64,000 bases of DNA, taken from NCBI RefSeq assembly GCF_013122565.1, contig NZ_CP053258.1. One strand, written 5' to 3'. The position numbers were made by a program, and so were the translations under genes. The notes beneath the pieces were generated by a model that saw nothing but the letters and a program-made list of their open reading frames with translations, searched no databases and had not been told where the DNA came from. Shown piece by piece: positions 23,274 through 34,474 of the stretch. Source of the stretch: Escherichia coli (lineage in GTDB: Bacteria > Pseudomonadota > Gammaproteobacteria > Enterobacterales > Enterobacteriaceae). Every line of letters begins with the position of its first letter. The stretch's first letter is position 1.

Positions 23274-24401
23274 TTAATCCAGTCCCAGCACACCGCGAAG
23301 TTGCGCCAGATCTTCCGCCAGCGCAGTAATCGGTCCTTTCAGTGCATTCCGGTCGGCATCGGTCAATTTGTCGTAGGTTTCAAAACCGTCTTTAGTACGG
23401 TATTTCGCCAGAATGGTATCGACCTTTTTAAAGTTGGCATCGACTTTTGCCAGCAGTTCCGGGTTGGCTTTTTGCAGTTGTGGACGCAGCAAATCGACAA
23501 TTTTCTGCGAGCCTTCAACGTTAGCCTGGAAATCCCACAGATCGGTGTGGCTGTAGCGATCTTCTTCACCGCTAATTTTGCTGGCTGCCACTTCCTCAAT
23601 CAGTCCGGCTGCGCCGCCGACCACTTTTGAAGGTGGGAAAGCCAGTTCACTGATGCGTTTTTGCAAATCGACCACATCGGTATAAAGCTGCTCAGCGTAC
23701 TGATCCATCCCTTTGGTGGTGTTGTCGCCAAACAATGCTTTTTCCAGACGGTGGAAACCAGTGAATTTTGGGTCGGCGGCTTTTTGCTCGTAATCATCTT
23801 CACGGGCGTCAATGCTGCCATCCAGATCGGAGAACAGTTCAGCAATCGGTTCAATACGCTCATAGTGCTGGCGCGTCGGTGCATACAGTGCTTTCGCTTT
23901 TTCGATATCGCCTGCTTTAATCGCGTCGGTAAAGGCTTTGGTGTCGGTCACCAGCTGCGTGGTTTCCGCCATGACATACGCTTTATATGCAGTAATTGCA
24001 CCACCAAGACTTAACAGCGCATCACTTTGCGCCGCATCCGCCGTTGCCTCACCTTTGACGATCAACTTCCCTTTCGGGTTAGTCAGCAGACCGCAGGTCA
24101 TATCGTATTCGCCAGGCTGTAAATTCGCCGTCATTTTCTGGCTAAAGCCAGGGGCGATATTTTCCCGCTCTTCCACCACCATCACGCCTTTGAGGATCTC
24201 CCACTCCAGCGCCTTCTGGCTGTGGTTCTGAATAATGAACTGTGTTTTCCCGGCGTTAACCGTAATGGTCATCGGTTCGCACTGCTTATCCGTCACGGTC
24301 ACTTTGACCTGCGGCACATCAGCGGCGTTAGCCATAAAAGCAGAAGAAAACAGCGCAGCCACGCTCAACTGCAATGCGTTACGGCGGAAGTTAATGGTCA
24401 T
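23274..24401 (-). CDS. efeO: EfeO, periplasmic iron-binding cupredoxin/M75 protein
   Basis: 375 aa; signal peptide; matches K-12 EfeO (YcdO). Confidence 0.95.
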
Positions 24402-24458
24402 GACGAGACTATCCCTTTAAAGTATGTTGTAACTAAGCAAGAGTTTGCGTCGTATTTG

Positions 24459-25289
24459 TTACGCGGAGCGAGACGCTGTCGCCCCTGCGCGTGGTGGCAG
24501 AGCAAATGCCACCAGCGCCGGGATGAGATAAATAAACCAGACGGCGACTTCGCTGACGCTCGGCGCTTCCTGATAGCCAAAAATCCCTTCCATCAGCGTG
24601 CCAAACAGCGAGTGAGTTGAGAGCACCGCACTCATATCGAAGGCGATTTCCTGAAAGTGGTTCCACAATCCGGCTTCATGAAATGCGCGAATGGCACCAG
24701 CTGCCAGCCCTGCGGCGACGAAGAGAATAAACAGGCTGGTCCATTTAAAAAATGCACCAAGATTGAGGCGAATACCGCCCCAGTAGAGCAGGAAGCCTAG
24801 CACCACGGCAGTAGCAAGACCGAGCATTGCACCCAGCGGCGGCCAGATCCCGACATCTTGTTGAAATGCCGCCAGCAGGAAAAAGACCGACTCCAGCCCT
24901 TCCCTTGCAACGGCAAAAAAGACCATCATCACCAGCGCCCAGCCATGATGATTTCCACGCTGCAATGCGCTATCGACTGCCTGTTCCAGTTGCACTTTGA
25001 CGTTGCGCGACACTTTGCGCATCCAGAAAACCATCCAGGTAAGGATCACCACGGCGATCACCGCCACGATACCTTCAAACAGTTCCTGTTCTTTTTGCGG
25101 AAATTCGCCGGTGGTTTCGTTAATGAAGATACCCAAGCCCAGGCACAACGCAGCGGCAAGCAACACGCCAATCCACATCACACCAATCCATCGGCCTCGC
25201 TGGGTACGCTTAAGATAGCTGGCAATCAAACTGACAATCAGCGCGGCTTCAAGTCCTTCGCGCAACATAATGAGAAACGGAACAAACAT
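24459..25289 (-). CDS. efeU: EfeU, Ftr1-family ferrous iron permease; intact reading frame
   Basis: 276 aa from MFVPFLIMLREGLEAALIV... with two REGLE motifs (REGLEAAL, REGLESVF). A single uninterrupted ORF, unlike the frameshifted K-12 allele. Confidence 0.9.
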   Translation of the reverse strand: MFVPFLIMLREGLEAALIVSLIASYLKRTQRGRWIGVMWIGVLLAAALCLGLGIFINETTGEFPQKEQELFEGIVAVIAVVILTWMVFWMRKVSRNVKVQLEQAVDSALQRGNHHGWALVMMVFFAVAREGLESVFFLLAAFQQDVGIWPPLGAMLGLATAVVLGFLLYWGGIRLNLGAFFKWTSLFILFVAAGLAAGAIRAFHEAGLWNHFQEIAFDMSAVLSTHSLFGTLMEGIFGYQEAPSVSEVAVWFIYLIPALVAFALPPRAGATASRSA

Positions 25290-25346
25290 GCCACCCACCC
25301 TTAAACGTTTTTCTGAGTCAATCTATGCAAAGAAAAGTAAATCGCA

Positions 25347-25366
25347 GTGATAGCGATTATCATTAC
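25347..25366 (-). promoter_or_regulatory. Candidate Fur box in the efeU promoter region
   Basis: gtgatagcgattatcattac; its reverse complement TAATGATAATCGCTATC resembles the Fur consensus GATAATGATAATCATTATC. Lies 60-80 bp upstream of the efeU start. Confidence 0.5.
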
Positions 25367-25831
25367 GGCAAAGAAAAACACAAGCGGAATGTTTATAAAA
25401 TGATGTTGGAATGTAAACAAAGAGAGGTAATGCCAGGGGATATAAACGATTATTCCAGGGTAGAAAGATGGGATTGTTTGCAAAGAACCATGTGTTCTTG
25501 CCGGATGCCGCGTAAACGCCATATCCAGCCGACAAAACTGTCCAGACTCAATGCATCAGAGCTTCCATGTAAAACTGATAAGCGGGTGTATCAAGCAATT
25601 TCGTCCATCCGCGATTATCAAATCTAACTTTTTGCCCGGAACATAATAACAGCTCGGGTGTTGGTGGCGTCAAAATCGCTGAAGCGTTCCCCGAAGGCCG
25701 GGACAGCAGGGGGCGGCGGCGATTGGCCGCCCCCTGCGCGCTCCCTGCACCATTCAATTTATATGGCGAGGCACATTAAGGGAGCGCAACCCGCTGCTGA
25801 AGCCAAACAAAACCGCCGCAGGCTAAGTCCC

Positions 25832-27340
<1,509 letters not shown>

Positions 27341-27528
27341 CTAAAGTCTCCAAAAAATTATTATCGGCAATGTCGAAACTTGCCGTTATATCTGCCACCG
27401 GAACGGGGTAACAGAGTTTATGTTTTACCAGGGCGACCGTATCCTGCCGGAAGCGCTGGTTATTCACAATCGATTTAACACACCATTTACATTAAATTTT
27501 AGTGCTCAGCGACACTATTTTTCATCAG

Positions 27529-27736
27529 GTTGCACTCTCTCACATTTTTTGCGGTTGCACCTTTCAAAAATGTTAACTGTCGCAGAGAAAAAGTCTGAGT
27601 TATTTTTTTAATCCCTGTCATATCGATTTCTTTTATTAACATTTCATTCATTTTTAAGCTTGCTACGCAAGTCACATTTAACATGGTTGCACAAAGTTGC
27701 AACATCGTGGATATTTCACGATAACGTTAAGTTGCA
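27529..27736. promoter_or_regulatory. put control region with multiple PutA operator sites (GTTGCA) between the divergent putP and putA genes
   Basis: GTTGCA at 27529-27534, 27554-27559, 27686-27691, 27696-27701 (part of the palindrome GTTGCAAC) and 27731-27736. PutA's RHH domain is known to bind GTTGCA. Confidence 0.7.
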
Positions 27737-27762
27737 CCTTTCAGAACAACAGGAGTAATGGC

Positions 27763-30700
27763 ATGGGAACCACCACCATGGGGGTTAAGCTGGACGACGC
27801 GACGCGTGAGCGTATTAAGTCTGCCGCGACACGTATCGATCGCACGCCACACTGGTTAATTAAGCAGGCGATTTTTTCTTATCTCGAACAACTGGAAAAC
27901 AGCGATACTCTGCCGGAGCTACCTGCGCTGCTTTCTGGCGCTGCCAATGAGAGCGATGAAGCACCGACTCCGGCAGAGGAACCACACCAGCCATTCCTCG
28001 ACTTTGCCGAGCAAATTTTGCCCCAGTCGGTTTCCCGCGCCGCGATCACCGCGGCCTATCGCCGCCCGGAAACCGAAGCGGTTTCTATGCTGCTGGAACA
28101 AGCCCGCCTGCCGCAGCCAGTTGCTGAACAGGCGCACAAACTGGCGTATCAACTGGCCGATAAACTGCGTAATCAAAAAAATGCCAGTGGTCGTGCAGGA
28201 ATGGTCCAGGGGTTATTGCAGGAGTTTTCGCTGTCATCGCAGGAAGGCGTGGCGCTGATGTGTCTGGCAGAAGCGTTGTTGCGTATTCCCGACAAAGCCA
28301 CCCGCGACGCGTTAATTCGCGACAAAATCAGCAACGGTAACTGGCAGTCACACATTGGTCGTAGCCCGTCACTGTTTGTTAATGCCGCTACCTGGGGGCT
28401 GCTGTTTACTGGCAAACTGGTTTCCACCCATAACGAAGCCAGCCTCTCCCGCTCGCTGAACCGCATTATCGGTAAAAGCGGTGAACCGCTGATCCGCAAA
28501 GGTGTGGATATGGCGATGCGCCTGATGGGCGAGCAGTTCGTCACGGGCGAAACCATCGCGGAAGCGTTAGCCAATGCCCGCAAGCTGGAAGAGAAAGGTT
28601 TCCGTTACTCTTACGATATGCTGGGCGAAGCCGCGCTGACCGCCGCAGATGCACAGGCGTATATGGTTTCCTATCAGCAGGCGATTCACGCCATCGGTAA
28701 AGCGTCTAACGGTCGTGGCATCTATGAAGGTCCGGGCATTTCAATCAAGCTGTCGGCGCTGCATCCGCGTTACAGCCGCGCCCAGTATGACCGGGTAATG
28801 GAAGAGCTTTACCCACGTCTGAAATCACTCACCCTGCTGGCGCGTCAGTACGATATTGGTATTAACATCGATGCCGAAGAGGCCGATCGTCTGGAGATCT
28901 CCCTCGATCTGCTGGAAAAACTCTGTTTCGAGCCGGAACTGGCAGGCTGGAACGGCATCGGTTTTGTTATTCAGGCTTATCAAAAACGCTGCCCGTTGGT
29001 GATTGATTACCTGATTGATCTCGCCACCCGCAGCCGTCGCCGTCTGATGATTCGTCTGGTGAAAGGCGCGTACTGGGATAGTGAAATCAAGCGTGCGCAG
29101 ATGGACGGCCTTGAAGGTTATCCGGTTTATACTCGCAAGGTGTATACCGACGTTTCTTATCTTGCCTGTGCGAAAAAGCTGCTAGCGGTGCCAAATCTAA
29201 TCTACCCGCAGTTCGCGACGCACAACGCCCATACGCTGGCGGCAATTTATCAACTGGCAGGTCAGAACTACTATCCGGGTCAGTACGAGTTCCAGTGCCT
29301 GCATGGTATGGGCGAGCCACTGTATGAGCAGGTCACCGGGAAAGTTGCCGACGGCAAACTTAACCGTCCGTGTCGTATTTATGCTCCGGTCGGTACACAT
29401 GAAACGCTGCTGGCGTATCTGGTGCGTCGCCTGCTGGAAAACGGTGCTAACACCTCGTTTGTTAACCGTATTGCCGACACCTCTTTGCCACTGGATGAAC
29501 TGGTCGCCGATCCGGTCACTGCTGTAGAAACACTGGCGCAACAGGAAGGGCAAACTGGATTACCGCATCCGAAAATTCCCCTGCCGCGCGATCTTTACGG
29601 TCACGGGCGCGACAACTCGGCAGGGCTGGATCTCGCTAACGAACACCGTCTGGCCTCGCTCTCTTCTGCCCTGCTCAATAGTGCACTGCAAAAATGGCAG
29701 GCCTTGCCCATGCTGGAACAACCGGTAGCGGCTGGTGAGATGTCGCCCGTTATTAACCCTGCGGAACCGAAAGATATTGTGGGCTATGTGCGTGAAGCCA
29801 CGCCGCGTGAAGTAGAACAGGCGCTGGAAAGTGCGGTTAATAACGCGCCAATCTGGTTTGCCACTCCTCCGGCTGAACGCGCGGCAATTTTACATCGCGC
29901 TGCCGTGCTAATGGAAAGCCAGATGCAGCAACTGATTGGTATTCTGGTGCGTGAAGCCGGAAAAACCTTCAGTAACGCCATTGCCGAAGTGCGCGAAGCG
30001 GTCGATTTTCTCCACTACTACGCCGGACAGGTGCGGGATGATTTCGCTAACGAAACCCACCGTCCATTAGGGCCTGTGGTGTGTATCAGTCCGTGGAACT
30101 TCCCGCTGGCTATTTTTACCGGGCAGATCGCTGCCGCACTGGCGGCAGGTAACAGCGTGCTGGCAAAACCGGCAGAACAAACGCCGCTGATTGCCGCGCA
30201 AGGGATCGCCATTTTGCTGGAGGCGGGTGTACCGCCAGGCGTGGTGCAATTGCTGCCAGGTCGGGGTGAAACCGTGGGCGCGCAACTGACGGGTGATGAT
30301 CGCGTGCGCGGGGTGATGTTTACCGGTTCAACCGAAGTCGCTACGTTACTGCAACGCAATATCGCCAGCCGCCTGGACGCTCAGGGTCGCCCTATTCCGC
30401 TCATCGCTGAAACCGGCGGCATGAACGCGATGATTGTCGATTCTTCAGCACTGACCGAACAAGTCGTAATAGATGTGCTGGCCTCGGCGTTCGACAGTGC
30501 GGGTCAGCGTTGTTCGGCGCTGCGCGTGCTGTGCCTGCAAGATGAGATTGCCGACCACACGTTGAAAATGCTACGCGGCGCAATGGCCGAATGCCGGATG
30601 GGTAATCCGGGTCGCCTGACCACCGATATCGGTCCGGTGATTGATAGCGAAGCGAAAGCCAATATCGAGCGTCATATTCAGACCATGCGTAGCAAAGGCC

Positions 30701-31725
30701 GTCCGGTGTTCCAGGCGGTGCGGGAAAACAGCGAAGATGCCCGTGAATGGCAAAGCGGCACCTTTGTCGCCCCGACGCTGATCGAACTGGATGACTTTGC
30801 CGAATTGCAAAAAGAGGTTTTTGGTCCGGTGCTGCATGTGGTGCGTTACAACCGTAACCAGCTGCCGGAGCTGATCGAGCAGATTAACGCTTCCGGTTAT
30901 GGTCTGACGCTTGGCGTCCATACGCGCATTGATGAAACCATCGCCCAGGTCACTGGCTCGGCCCATGTTGGTAACCTGTATGTTAACCGTAATATGGTGG
31001 GCGCAGTGGTTGGTGTGCAGCCGTTCGGCGGCGAAGGGTTGTCCGGTACCGGGCCGAAAGCAGGCGGTCCGCTCTATCTCTACCGTCTGCTGGCGAATCG
31101 CCCGGAAAGTGCGCTGGCAGTAACGCTCTCGCGTCAGGATGCAGAGTATCCGGTCGATGCGCAGTTGAAAGCCGCATTGACTCAGCCGCTAAATGCACTG
31201 CGGGAATGGGCAGCAAATCGTCCAGAATTGCAGGCGTTATGTACGCAATATGGCGAGCTGGCGCAGGCAGGAACACAACGATTGCTGCCAGGGCCGACGG
31301 GTGAACGCAACACCTGGACACTGCTGCCGCGTGAGCGCGTATTGTGTATCGCGGATGATGAGCAGGATGCGCTGACTCAGCTCGCCGCCGTGCTGGCGGT
31401 GGGCAGCCAGGTACTGTGGCCGGATGACGCGCTGCATCGTCAGTTAGTAAAGGCATTGCCATCGGCAGTCAGCGAACGTATTCAACTGGCGAAAGTGGAA
31501 AATATAACCGCTCAACCCTTTGATGCGGTGATCTTCCACGGTGATTCGGATCAGCTTCGCGCATTGTGTGAAGCCGTTGCCGCGCGGGATGGCGCAATTG
31601 TTTCGGTGCAGGGTTTTGCCCGTGGCGAAAGCAATATCCTTCTGGAACGGCTGTATATCGAACGTTCGCTGAGTGTGAATACCGCTGCCGCTGGCGGTAA
31701 CGCCAGCTTAATGACGATCGGTTAA
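27763..31725 (+). CDS. putA: PutA, bifunctional proline dehydrogenase / P5C dehydrogenase and transcriptional repressor
   Basis: 1320 aa from MGTTTMGVKLDDATRERIK (N-terminal RHH domain). The ORF extends upstream to 27697, but an AGGAG SD precedes the ATG at 27763. Confidence 0.95.
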   Translation: MGTTTMGVKLDDATRERIKSAATRIDRTPHWLIKQAIFSYLEQLENSDTLPELPALLSGAANESDEAPTPAEEPHQPFLDFAEQILPQSVSRAAITAAYRRPETEAVSMLLEQARLPQPVAEQAHKLAYQLADKLRNQKNASGRAGMVQGLLQEFSLSSQEGVALMCLAEALLRIPDKATRDALIRDKISNGNWQSHIGRSPSLFVNAATWGLLFTGKLVSTHNEASLSRSLNRIIGKSGEPLIRKGVDMAMRLMGEQFVTGETIAEALANARKLEEKGFRYSYDMLGEAALTAADAQAYMVSYQQAIHAIGKASNGRGIYEGPGISIKLSALHPRYSRAQYDRVMEELYPRLKSLTLLARQYDIGINIDAEEADRLEISLDLLEKLCFEPELAGWNGIGFVIQAYQKRCPLVIDYLIDLATRSRRRLMIRLVKGAYWDSEIKRAQMDGLEGYPVYTRKVYTDVSYLACAKKLLAVPNLIYPQFATHNAHTLAAIYQLAGQNYYPGQYEFQCLHGMGEPLYEQVTGKVADGKLNRPCRIYAPVGTHETLLAYLVRRLLENGANTSFVNRIADTSLPLDELVADPVTAVETLAQQEGQTGLPHPKIPLPRDLYGHGRDNSAGLDLANEHRLASLSSALLNSALQKWQALPMLEQPVAAGEMSPVINPAEPKDIVGYVREATPREVEQALESAVNNAPIWFATPPAERAAILHRAAVLMESQMQQLIGILVREAGKTFSNAIAEVREAVDFLHYYAGQVRDDFANETHRPLGPVVCISPWNFPLAIFTGQIAAALAAGNSVLAKPAEQTPLIAAQGIAILLEAGVPPGVVQLLPGRGETVGAQLTGDDRVRGVMFTGSTEVATLLQRNIASRLDAQGRPIPLIAETGGMNAMIVDSSALTEQVVIDVLASAFDSAGQRCSALRVLCLQDEIADHTLKMLRGAMAECRMGNPGRLTTDIGPVIDSEAKANIERHIQTMRSKGRPVFQAVRENSEDAREWQSGTFVAPTLIELDDFAELQKEVFGPVLHVVRYNRNQLPELIEQINASGYGLTLGVHTRIDETIAQVTGSAHVGNLYVNRNMVGAVVGVQPFGGEGLSGTGPKAGGPLYLYRLLANRPESALAVTLSRQDAEYPVDAQLKAALTQPLNALREWAANRPELQALCTQYGELAQAGTQRLLPGPTGERNTWTLLPRERVLCIADDEQDALTQLAAVLAVGSQVLWPDDALHRQLVKALPSAVSERIQLAKVENITAQPFDAVIFHGDSDQLRALCEAVAARDGAIVSVQGFARGESNILLERLYIERSLSVNTAAAGGNASLMTIG

Positions 31726-31732
31726 ACAGGTA

Positions 31733-31760
31733 GCCGGAGGATGTTACAACCTCCTCCGGC
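31733..31760. terminator. Hairpin between the convergent putA and rutR genes
   Basis: gccggagg-atgttacaac-cctcctccggc inverted repeat followed by atcttt. Confidence 0.5.
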
Positions 31761-31764
31761 ATCT

Positions 31765-32403
31765 TTAACGTGGTCGAATCCCCTCAATAATAATCCGCTG
31801 CACGTTTTCAACCGTTTGAGTGAAAAATATCTCATCGCGCAACGTCGCGCCTGTCACCGCCTCCACCTGAGGGGCGAAATCGGCGTAATGTTGAGTGGAA
31901 GCCCAAATCATAAAAATCAAATGCTGCGGATCAATCGGCGCGAGTTTGCCGCTTTTGACCCAACCGGCAATCAGCGCCGATTTCTCATCAATTAATGCCT
32001 TCAAATCGCCCGTCAGTTCATCCATTAACAACGGCGCGCCTGCCAGCATCTCCATACAAAACAGACGTGAAGCCTGCGGATAATCGCGTGAGACTTCCAG
32101 CTTAAGACGGATGTACTCTTTGATCGCCGCCAGCGGGGCGAAATCTTCACGAAACGCTTTTAACGGTGCCAGCCAGATATCGAGAATCTGCCGCAGCACG
32201 GCAATATACAGCGCCTCTTTTGACGGAAAGTAATACAGCAGATTGGTTTTTGAAACACCCGCCAACTCTGCGATCTGCTCCAGCCGTGTGCCGTGAAAAC
32301 CGAATTGTGAAAAAGTGTCCAGTGCTGCGCTAAGAATCGCTTTTTTCTTCGCGCTTACTGCGCGCGAACGTTTACCCGTTGTTTTCACTGCGCCTTGCGT
32401 CAT
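31765..32403 (-). CDS. rutR: RutR, TetR-family repressor of the rut operon (pyrimidine utilisation)
   Basis: 212 aa from MTQGAVKTTGKRSR...; TetR HTH; matches K-12 RutR. Confidence 0.95.
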   Translation of the reverse strand: MTQGAVKTTGKRSRAVSAKKKAILSAALDTFSQFGFHGTRLEQIAELAGVSKTNLLYYFPSKEALYIAVLRQILDIWLAPLKAFREDFAPLAAIKEYIRLKLEVSRDYPQASRLFCMEMLAGAPLLMDELTGDLKALIDEKSALIAGWVKSGKLAPIDPQHLIFMIWASTQHYADFAPQVEAVTGATLRDEIFFTQTVENVQRIIIEGIRPR

Positions 32404-32509
32404 GCGCTCTCCCCTCTTGTAGATTGGCAACAGGATAGCAAAACCCCCGCCCGGCCTCGACCTTCTGCACTCTCATCGCGCACGGATGCATGTTTTATGT
32501 GCAACTGTT

Positions 32510-32525
32510 TTGACCGTTTAGTCCA
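32510..32525. promoter_or_regulatory. Candidate RutR operator
   Basis: TTGACCGTTTAGTCCA resembles the RutR consensus TTGACCAnnTGGTCAA. Lies between rutR and the rutA promoter. Confidence 0.4.
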
Positions 32526-32589
32526 CTTTTTTCCAGATATTTTATATAACCCAACATTAACACATTAATAACATTCACTTTTTAAAAAC

Positions 32590-32605
32590 TGGCATCCGCT
32601 TTGCA
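32590..32605 (+). promoter_or_regulatory. Sigma54 (-24/-12) promoter of rutA
   Basis: TGGCATccgctTTGCA matches TGGCAC-N5-TTGCA with the conserved GG and GC. The rut operon is known to be NtrC/sigma54-dependent. Confidence 0.65.
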
Positions 32606-32633
32606 AACAAGCCATTACGCGGCTGAAAAGGAT

Positions 32634-34474
<1,841 letters not shown>

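What the first reader, a model, noticed from the sequence alone, without database searches (positions are those of the whole stretch)
27529..27736. Five GTTGCA PutA operator motifs in the put control region
The divergent putP-putA intergenic region carries GTTGCA at five positions, including a GTTGCAAC palindrome. This is consistent with the known autoregulation by the PutA RHH domain and confirms the regulatory architecture is conserved in this strain.
Basis: partly seen in the sequence, partly recalled or inferred. Interest (0 to 1): 0.2.

Follow-up and report, generated by a model that had tools for sequence, protein, structure and literature searches.

The report
Known PutA operators between putP and putA
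The five GTTGCA repeats are real and far from chance, but they are the already well-characterised binding sites through which the E. coli proline-catabolism enzyme PutA switches off its own gene and the proline transporter gene, so the finding is correct but ordinary.

Summary
GTTGCA occurs on the + strand at 27529, 27554, 27686, 27696 (inside the palindrome GTTGCAAC, 27696-27703) and 27731. All five lie in the 422-bp spacer between divergent putP (25832-27340, -) and putA (27763-31725, +). About 0.1-0.2 copies are expected, and none of 20,000 shuffles gave more than 3. The spacer aligns without gaps to E. coli K-12 MG1655, with 4 SNPs, none inside a hexamer, so all five motifs sit at the K-12 positions. 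PutA residues 1-52 are identical to the crystallised RHH domain, and the DNA core tabulated for the co-crystal 2RBF (cGGTTGCACc) is the window sequence at the second motif. Genomic SELEX found this spacer to be the only PutA target in K-12. In 80 species chosen by PutA protein similarity, GTTGCA is about 50-fold enriched upstream of putA, and 77 of 80 carry the O3/O4 tandem. One modest addition: the fifth site (-32) is an exact hexamer only in E. coli, being absent from E. albertii and 12 other enteric genera sampled. The primary operator-mapping paper (Zhou et al. 2008) could not be read here, so operator numbering and functional assignment rest on my memory.

The parts
25832..27340 (-). putP, sodium/proline symporter (502 aa), divergent from putA
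   Evidence: ORF. NCBIfam NF011948 PutP equivalog, 1143.5 bits against a cut-off of 955.
27341..27762 (.). put control region: the 422-bp putP-putA spacer, 38% GC
   Evidence: Aligns gaplessly to K-12 with 4 SNPs. Present in 5420 of 5426 complete E. coli genomes.
27499..27525 (-). ymdG small ORF (MKNSVAEH) in the putP leader; its ATG lies 3 bp from operator 1
   Evidence: K-12 annotation b4737 mapped through the alignment. Translation was shown by epitope tagging (PMC6001520). RNA 3' ends downstream are listed as ymdG-putP (PMC7815308).
27529..27534 (+). GTTGCA copy 1 (operator 1, putP-proximal pair); 8-bp core GGTTGCAC at 27528-27535
   Evidence: Matches the 2RBF readout core 8/8. AGGTTGCACT is invariant in 14 enteric sequences.
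27554..27559 (+). GTTGCA copy 2 (operator 2); 8-bp core GGTTGCAC at 27553-27560; this is the sequence in the PutA52-DNA crystal
   Evidence: cGGTTGCACc equals the 2RBF entry in PMC4655474. Core match 8/8. Conserved in 12 of 14 enteric sequences, 25 bp from copy 1.
27686..27691 (+). GTTGCA copy 3 (operator 3), first half of the 10-bp-spaced tandem; core GGTTGCAC at 27685-27692
   Evidence: Core match 8/8. GTTGCA-N4-GTTGCA lies upstream of putA in 77 of 80 species, Pseudomonas included.
27696..27703 (+). GTTGCA copy 4 (operator 4) inside the 8-bp palindrome GTTGCAAC; core AGTTGCAA
   Evidence: hits on both strands. Core match 6/8. Invariant in 14 enteric sequences.
27710..27715 (+). GATATT, candidate -10 hexamer of the putA promoter (inferred); it pairs with TTGCAC (27687-27692, inside operator 3) at a 17-bp spacing
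   Evidence: Inference only. The GGATA block is conserved across enteric genera. The consensus scan did not call it at its threshold. No TSS data were available here.
27731..27736 (+). GTTGCA copy 5 (operator 5), 32 bp upstream of the putA ATG; core AGTTGCAC; shares the 13-nt string GTTGCACCTTTCA with copy 2
   Evidence: Core match 7/8. The exact 30-mer is in 5373 of 5426 E. coli genomes. Absent from E. albertii and 12 other enteric genera.
27751..27755 (+). AGGAG Shine-Dalgarno sequence of putA
   Evidence: Sequence. CAGGAG is conserved across genera.
27763..27918 (+). PutA residues 1-52, the ribbon-helix-helix DNA-binding domain
   Evidence: 100% identical to PDB 2gpe and 2rbf.
27763..31725 (+). 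putA, trifunctional repressor / proline dehydrogenase / P5C dehydrogenase (1320 aa)
   Evidence: NCBIfam NF008772 equivalog, 2657.9 bits against a cut-off of 1750, full length.

Best explanation
The five GTTGCA copies are the operators of the E. coli put regulon.

Inferred from the literature: a dimer of the N-terminal ribbon-helix-helix domain of PutA inserts its two-stranded beta-sheet into the major groove at each copy and reads an 8-bp core, (G/A)GTTGCA(C/A). The three putA-proximal copies are 27686, 27696 and 27731. Two of them form a tandem 10 bp apart that overlaps the probable -35 and spacer of the putA promoter, and the third lies between the promoter and the ribosome-binding site. 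Together they repress putA. The two distal copies, 27529 and 27554, are 25 bp apart and sit at the start of the ymdG-putP leader. They repress putP. When proline is present it reduces the FAD of PutA. The protein then moves to the membrane to act as an enzyme, the operators empty, and both genes are expressed.

Shown here: the presence, positions and non-randomness of the sites; their identity to K-12; identity of the RHH domain to the crystallised one; identity of copy 2 to the co-crystal DNA core; and deep evolutionary conservation.

Not shown here: actual occupancy, the promoter positions, and the split of three sites for putA and two for putP.
For: - Exact coordinates. Five copies against 0.1-0.2 expected, with 0 of 20,000 shuffles reaching 5.
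- Gapless alignment to K-12 with every hexamer intact.
- Flanks are full-length putP and trifunctional putA.
- PutA 1-52 is identical to PDB 2gpe and 2rbf. 2RBF is the E. coli PutA RHH homodimer on DNA at 2.25 A (PMC3262759). Its tabulated core cGGTTGCACc, with 8 readout bases, equals window 27552-27561 (PMC4655474).
- gSELEX shows PutA binding only the putA/putP spacer (PMC8249747).
- Repressor function and membrane switching are described in PMC5293562 and PMC5879082.
- In 80 species picked by PutA protein similarity, GTTGCA occurs at 10.0 per kb on the putA-sense strand in the 350 bp upstream, against 0.20 per kb in and beyond putA. Of these, 77 of 80 have GTTGCA-N4-GTTGCA. The flanking positions are R at -1 (99%) and C/A at +6 (99%).
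- All five hexamers are retained in every E. coli spacer inspected, including one with 18 SNPs.
Against: Nothing contradicts it. The limits are as follows.
- No binding or expression data exist for this strain.
- The consensus promoter scan found only one promoter-like site in the spacer, no more than chance, and none at the proposed putA promoter. How each operator sits relative to a promoter is therefore inferred.
- Copy 4 matches the 8-bp readout core at 6/8 and copy 5 at 7/8.
- Copy 5 is not conserved outside E. coli, so the five sites are unlikely to be equivalent.
- The window carries two spacer alleles (27580 T, 27707 G) not seen in the five E. coli spacers compared, and their effect is unknown.
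Confidence: 0.95

Rival explanations
1. The five hexamers are a chance cluster in an AT-rich intergenic region and have no function.
For: GTTGCA is not over-represented in the window as a whole: 51 observed against 54.8 expected.
Against: Five same-strand copies in 208 bp against 0.05 expected. None of 20,000 shuffles of the spacer reached 5. Positions are conserved across genera and as far as Pseudomonas.
Confidence: 0.005
2. The hexamers are conserved mainly as RNA-polymerase promoter elements (TTGCAA and TTGCAC resemble the -35 consensus TTGACA) and not as repressor sites.
For: TTGCAC inside copy 3 lies 17 bp upstream of the conserved GATATT, so at least one copy probably doubles as a -35 element.
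Against: All five copies have the same orientation, although they serve divergent promoters. Copy 5 lies only 32 bp from the putA ATG, downstream of the probable -10. The conserved unit is the 8-bp (G/A)GTTGCA(C/A), which matches the base-readout core of the PutA-DNA crystal and not a -35 hexamer. gSELEX with purified PutA alone selects this spacer.
Confidence: 0.02
3. Only four sites (O1-O4) form the conserved regulatory core. The fifth (27731) is a recent, E. coli-specific accessory site, possibly weak or dispensable. 'Five operators' would then describe E. coli and not the system as a whole.
For: An exact GTTGCA at -32 occurs only in E. coli sequences. E. albertii has GCTATA there, and 12 other enteric genera have unrelated sequence. 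Copy 5 matches the 8-bp core at 7/8.
Against: Within E. coli the site is nearly fixed, with the exact 30-mer in 5373 of 5426 genomes. It shares 13 nt with the high-affinity crystal operator, copy 2. From memory, Zhou et al. 2008 reported three sites as critical for putA repression, which would include this one. This reading refines the main explanation and does not contradict it.
Confidence: 0.3

Closest known systems
E. coli K-12 put control region with five PutA operators (Zhou et al. 2008, J Mol Biol 381:174; PDB 2RBF)
   Same: Same genes, same 422-bp spacer, and all five GTTGCA copies at identical aligned positions. The RHH domain is identical. Copy 2 is identical to the crystal DNA core.
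   Different: Four substitutions outside the hexamers: 27580 T/C, 27670 A/T, 27707 G/A and 27743 A/T (window/K-12). 27743 A extends the string shared by copies 2 and 5 to 13 nt. The surrounding 10 kb is at most 98.7% identical to any complete E. coli genome, so this is a somewhat divergent lineage. The regulatory architecture is unchanged.
Pseudomonas put control region and the PutA RHH domain of P. putida (PDB 2jxg/2jxh/2jxi)
   Same: Divergent putP/putA and a PutA with an N-terminal RHH domain (matches residues 1-45 at E = 2e-20). GTTGCA copies lie upstream of putA, including the same 10-bp-spaced tandem at -88/-78.
   Different: The distal copies sit at different positions (-311 and -245, plus an inverted copy at about -268). 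There is no copy at the O5 position. According to PMC8871633, expression also needs an unidentified activator.
Other ribbon-helix-helix repressors (Arc, MetJ, CopG, NikR)
   Same: Beta-sheet insertion into the major groove and multiple short repeated operator units. CopG-family proteins are the next PDB sequence matches.
   Different: PutA is reported to bind each site as a single dimer, not a dimer-of-dimers on inverted repeats (PMC2777438). Its RHH domain is fused to a 1,270-residue enzyme whose redox state controls where the protein is located.

Membership tests
PutA (RHH) operators of the enterobacterial put regulon | Sequence motif 5'-GTTGCA-3' with an 8-bp base-readout core GGTTGCAC | tested here: met
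   Five exact hexamers. Matches to the core are 8/8, 8/8, 8/8, 6/8 and 7/8. The core is taken from the 2RBF entry in PMC4655474.
PutA (RHH) operators of the enterobacterial put regulon | Location in the spacer between divergently transcribed putA and putP | tested here: met
   putP 25832-27340 (-) and putA 27763-31725 (+); both pass NCBIfam equivalog cut-offs.
PutA (RHH) operators of the enterobacterial put regulon | Positional identity with the five K-12 operators | tested here: met
   Gapless 422-column alignment in which every hexamer is identical and in register with the GTTGCA copies of the K-12 spacer. That the K-12 GTTGCA copies are the experimentally mapped operators is from Zhou et al. 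2008 (own knowledge). It is corroborated for copy 2.
PutA (RHH) operators of the enterobacterial put regulon | A cognate trifunctional (type C) PutA with an N-terminal RHH domain is encoded next to the sites | tested here: met
   1320-aa PutA matching NF008772 over its full length. Residues 1-52 are 100% identical to PDB 2gpe and 2rbf.
PutA (RHH) operators of the enterobacterial put regulon | Conservation of the sites in orthologous control regions | tested here: met
   About 50-fold enrichment upstream of putA in 80 species. The O3/O4 tandem is in 77 of 80. O1 is in 14 of 14 and O2 in 12 of 14 enteric sequences aligned. O5 is in E. coli only.
PutA (RHH) operators of the enterobacterial put regulon | Physical binding by PutA and proline-relieved repression of putA and putP | not testable with these tools
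   Known for K-12 from the literature (gSELEX; EMSA on put control DNA with Kd about 45 nM). Not measured for this strain.

The most novel reading that the evidence does not exclude
The fifth operator (27731-27736) is an Escherichia coli-specific innovation. It is nearly fixed in E. coli but absent from E. albertii and every other enteric genus sampled. It shares a 13-nt string (GTTGCACCTTTCA) with operator 2, the operator used in the crystal structure. It would add a repressor site between the putA promoter and its ribosome-binding site, giving E. coli tighter putA autorepression than its relatives. Separately, operators 1 and 2 sit at the start of the translated upstream ORF ymdG. PutA occupancy could therefore be coupled to leader-based (uORF or premature-termination) control of putP.
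Probability: 0.3. Interest if true: 0.25.

Novelty: already known. Interest (0 to 1): 0.07.

Why it matters
It matters little beyond annotation. It confirms that this somewhat divergent Escherichia lineage keeps the textbook PutA autoregulatory switch intact: all five operators, an identical DNA-binding domain, and full-length putA and putP. The comparative by-product may interest people who work on PutA. It separates an ancient core (the O3/O4 tandem, shared with Pseudomonas) from an enteric addition (O1/O2) and an E. coli-only site (O5). That gives a natural series for testing how the number of operators tunes repression.

Tried and rejected
- **Primary and review papers not held.** These were Zhou et al. 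2008 (PMID 18586269 / PMC2665032), Tanner 2008 (PMC2664619), Singh & Tanner 2012 (PMC3715380), Larson 2006 (PMC2242416), Zhou 2008b (PMC2666929), and two review ids recalled from memory (PMC5650515, PMC6338584). Operator numbering and the three-for-putA, two-for-putP assignment therefore rest on my memory.\n- **Full-text searches.** Searches pairing GTTGCA with PutA or 'proline utilization' found nothing relevant. The first search was swamped by 'putative'.\n- **Translation error.** My first putA translation was off by one base. The ATG is at 27763.\n- **Promoter scan uninformative.** The consensus scan of 27300-27800 found one promoter-like site, as many as chance gives, and none at the likely putA promoter. 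Promoter positions are therefore inferred from conservation only.\n- **Terminator-like hits ignored.** Both hits in that scan lie inside coding starts, so I did not use them.\n- **Query too short.** A 28-nt population query was rejected. I replaced it with 30-50-mers.\n- **O3/O4 33-mer count.** It matched only 4715 genomes, which at first suggested operator loss in some strains. Inspection showed flanking SNPs such as 27684 T>C with the hexamers intact, so I rejected that idea for the strains examined.\n- **Long-term stationary-phase paper (PMC7858067).** I checked it for adaptive mutations in this spacer. The putP and putA mutations it reports are mainly in the genes themselves, not in the operators.

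Full report
**Observation**

Reading 27300-28000 and searching the window for GTTGCA gives + strand copies at 27529, 27554, 27686, 27696 and 27731. A single - strand hit at 27698 is the reverse reading of the 8-bp palindrome GTTGCAAC (27696-27703).

The flanking ORFs are a 502-aa protein on the - strand (25832-27340) and a 1320-aa protein on the + strand (ATG 27763, stop at 31725). NCBIfam identifies them as the sodium/proline symporter PutP (1143 bits, cut-off 955) and the trifunctional regulator/proline dehydrogenase/P5C dehydrogenase PutA (2658 bits, cut-off 1750). The motifs therefore lie in a 422-bp divergent putP-putA spacer (27341-27762).

**Chance**

GTTGCA is not over-represented in the window as a whole (51 observed, 54.8 expected). 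The cluster, however, is extreme:
- Five same-strand copies fall in 208 bp where 0.05 are expected (Poisson P about 2e-9, about 1e-6 after correcting for all positions in the window).
- No other 422-bp span holds more than two same-strand copies.
- None of 20,000 dinucleotide-preserving shuffles of the spacer reached five copies (maximum three).
- GTTGCA is the most frequent hexamer in the spacer.

**Comparison with K-12**

MG1655 has the same arrangement: putA b1014, putP b1015 and a 422-bp spacer. The two spacers align without gaps and differ at four positions: 27580 T/C, 27670 A/T, 27707 G/A and 27743 A/T (window/K-12). None is inside a hexamer, so the five motifs are in register with those of K-12.

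The spacer is present in 5420 of 5426 complete E. coli genomes at 95% identity or more. All five hexamers are retained in every E. coli spacer I inspected, including the GTDB species representative, which has 18 substitutions. Population counts for exact strings:

| String | Genomes with exact match (of 5426) |
|---|---|
| 30-mer around copy 5 | 5373 |
| 50-mer spanning copies 1-2 | 5397 |
| 33-mer around copies 3-4 | 4715 |

In the one such genome I inspected (H28), the missing 33-mer match is explained by a flanking SNP (27684 T>C), with the hexamers intact.

**What is known experimentally**

PutA residues 1-52 in the window are 100% identical to the crystallised ribbon-helix-helix domain PutA52 (PDB 2gpe, 2ay0, 2rbf). 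2RBF is the homodimeric E. coli PutA RHH domain bound to DNA at 2.25 A (PMC3262759). A table in PMC4655474, citing Zhou et al. 2008, gives its DNA as cGGTTGCACc with eight base-readout positions. That string is window 27552-27561, the second motif.

Scored against the 8-bp core GGTTGCAC, the five sites match as follows:

| Site | Match to GGTTGCAC |
|---|---|
| 1 | 8/8 |
| 2 | 8/8 |
| 3 | 8/8 |
| 4 | 6/8 |
| 5 | 7/8 |

The only three GGTTGCAC octamers in the whole 64-kb window are these three operator sites.

Genomic SELEX with purified PutA selected only the putA/putP spacer from the K-12 genome (PMC8249747). Full-length PutA binds put control DNA with a Kd of about 45 nM (PMC5293562). The switch from DNA-bound repressor to membrane-bound enzyme on proline reduction of the flavin is described in PMC5293562 and PMC5879082.

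The paper that mapped the five operators (Zhou et al. 2008, J Mol Biol 381:174) is not held in the library. From my own knowledge, it reports five GTTGCA operators in the E. coli put control region, with three critical for putA repression and two for putP. It also reports that flanking bases modulate affinity, with operator 4 flanks weakening binding about 15-fold.

**Independent comparative test**

I retrieved 80 loci from 80 species by similarity to the first 300 residues of PutA, so the choice did not depend on the motif. In the 350 bp upstream of putA, GTTGCA occurs at 10.0 per kb on the putA-sense strand. In and beyond putA it occurs at 0.20 per kb, a 50-fold difference.
- **Copies 3/4:** 77 of 80 species, Pseudomonas included, carry the 10-bp-spaced tandem GTTGCA-N4-GTTGCA 60-140 bp (up to about 200 bp in a few species) upstream of the putA start codon.
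- **Copies 1/2:** 21 of 80 carry the 25-bp-spaced pair.
- **Aligned enteric sequences (14):** the block TTTAACAnGGTTGCACAAAGTTGCAACAT (copies 3-4) and AGGTTGCACT (copy 1) are invariant. Copy 2 is kept in 12 of 14.
- **Flanking positions:** over 280 upstream sites, the position before the hexamer is a purine in 99% and the position after is C or A in 99%. This matches the crystal readout core.

Copy 5 (27731, 32 bp before the putA ATG) is an exact hexamer only in E. coli. E. albertii has GCTATA at that position, and the other 12 enteric genera have unrelated sequence. 'Five operators' therefore describes E. coli. The ancient core is the O3/O4 tandem, and O1/O2 is shared by the close enteric genera. 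In the window, copy 5 shares a 13-nt string, GTTGCACCTTTCA, with copy 2.

**Mechanism**

The best-supported explanation is the established one. PutA RHH dimers occupy the three putA-proximal sites and the two distal sites, repressing putA and putP respectively. Proline-driven FAD reduction moves PutA to the membrane and relieves repression.

The positions of operators relative to promoters are my inference.
- **putA side:** TTGCAC (27687-27692, inside copy 3) and the conserved GATATT (27710-27715) are 17 bp apart and would make a plausible putA promoter. That places copies 3-4 on the -35 and spacer, and copy 5 just downstream of the start. The consensus scan did not call this promoter and found no more sites than chance.
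- **putP side:** the small ORF ymdG (27525-27499, - strand; MKNSVAEH) starts 3 bp from copy 1 and is known to be translated (PMC6001520). At least one putP-direction transcript must therefore start in or beyond the copy 1/2 region.

**Rivals**
- Chance is excluded.
- A purely promoter-element reading (TTGCAA/TTGCAC acting as -35 hexamers) does not fit. All five copies share one orientation despite serving divergent promoters. Copy 5 lies downstream of the probable -10. The conserved unit is 8 bp and equals the crystal readout.
- A refinement I cannot exclude is that copy 5 is an accessory, lineage-specific site.

**Verdict**

The feature is the already known PutA operator array, so interest is low. 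The only modest additions are the phylogenetic layering of the five sites and the closeness of operator 1 to ymdG.

Noticed in passing
window 27731-27743; L003 (E. albertii) and L004-L024, at the aligned position about -32 from putA: Operator 5 is an exact GTTGCA only in E. coli. E. albertii has GCTATA and the other enteric genera have unrelated sequence. Within E. coli it is nearly fixed (5373 of 5426 genomes). In the window it shares 13 nt (GTTGCACCTTTCA) with operator 2.
   Followed up: partly
window 27499-27525 (- strand); extended frames reach 27621 and 27708: The small ORF ymdG (MKNSVAEH) is intact, with its ATG 3 bp from operator 1. It was first reported as a 40-aa protein whose frame reads through operators 1 and 2. 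PGAP annotates a 69-aa 'hypothetical protein' in the same frame in other E. coli, probably an over-call. RNA 3' ends downstream of ymdG in the putP leader have been reported, hinting at uORF-linked control. The ATG is not conserved outside Escherichia.
   Followed up: partly
L024 (Shimwellia pseudoproteus), -87/-77/-67 from putA: Three GTTGCA copies at 10-bp spacing where other species have two. This is a duplication of the 10-bp operator unit (GTTGCACAAA).
   Followed up: no
L085 (E. coli EC22, NZ_CM169479.1), locus 1788-2653: An IS1 element and a truncated pgaB replace putP and the distal half of the spacer, including operators 1 and 2. Operators 3-5 and putA are retained. This is a natural putP deletion variant.
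   Followed up: partly
window 27580 and 27707: Two spacer alleles (T and G) are absent from all five E. coli spacers compared, and the best of 5426 genomes still differs from the window at these two positions. 27707 lies 6 bp after operator 4, just before the conserved GGATATT block. G is the state in Citrobacter and Enterobacter.
   Followed up: partly
window 24000-34000: The best identity to any of 5426 complete E. coli genomes is only 98.7% over 10 kb, and the top hits come from soil, water and wild animals. The window is therefore from a lineage poorly represented among complete genomes. The spacer itself is better conserved, at 99.5%.
   Followed up: no
window 24462-25298 (- strand): efeU is full length (279 aa, passes the EfeU equivalog cut-off), followed by intact efeO and efeB. 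In K-12 efeU is a frameshifted pseudogene.
   Followed up: partly
window 27571-27577, 27672-27684; alignment: Several non-GTTGCA blocks in the spacer are conserved across enteric genera: TGTTAAC after operator 2, GTCACATTTAACA before operator 3, and CTCAC after operator 1. TTAACA occurs three times in the spacer. They may be promoter elements or sites for other regulators. I did not identify them.
   Followed up: no
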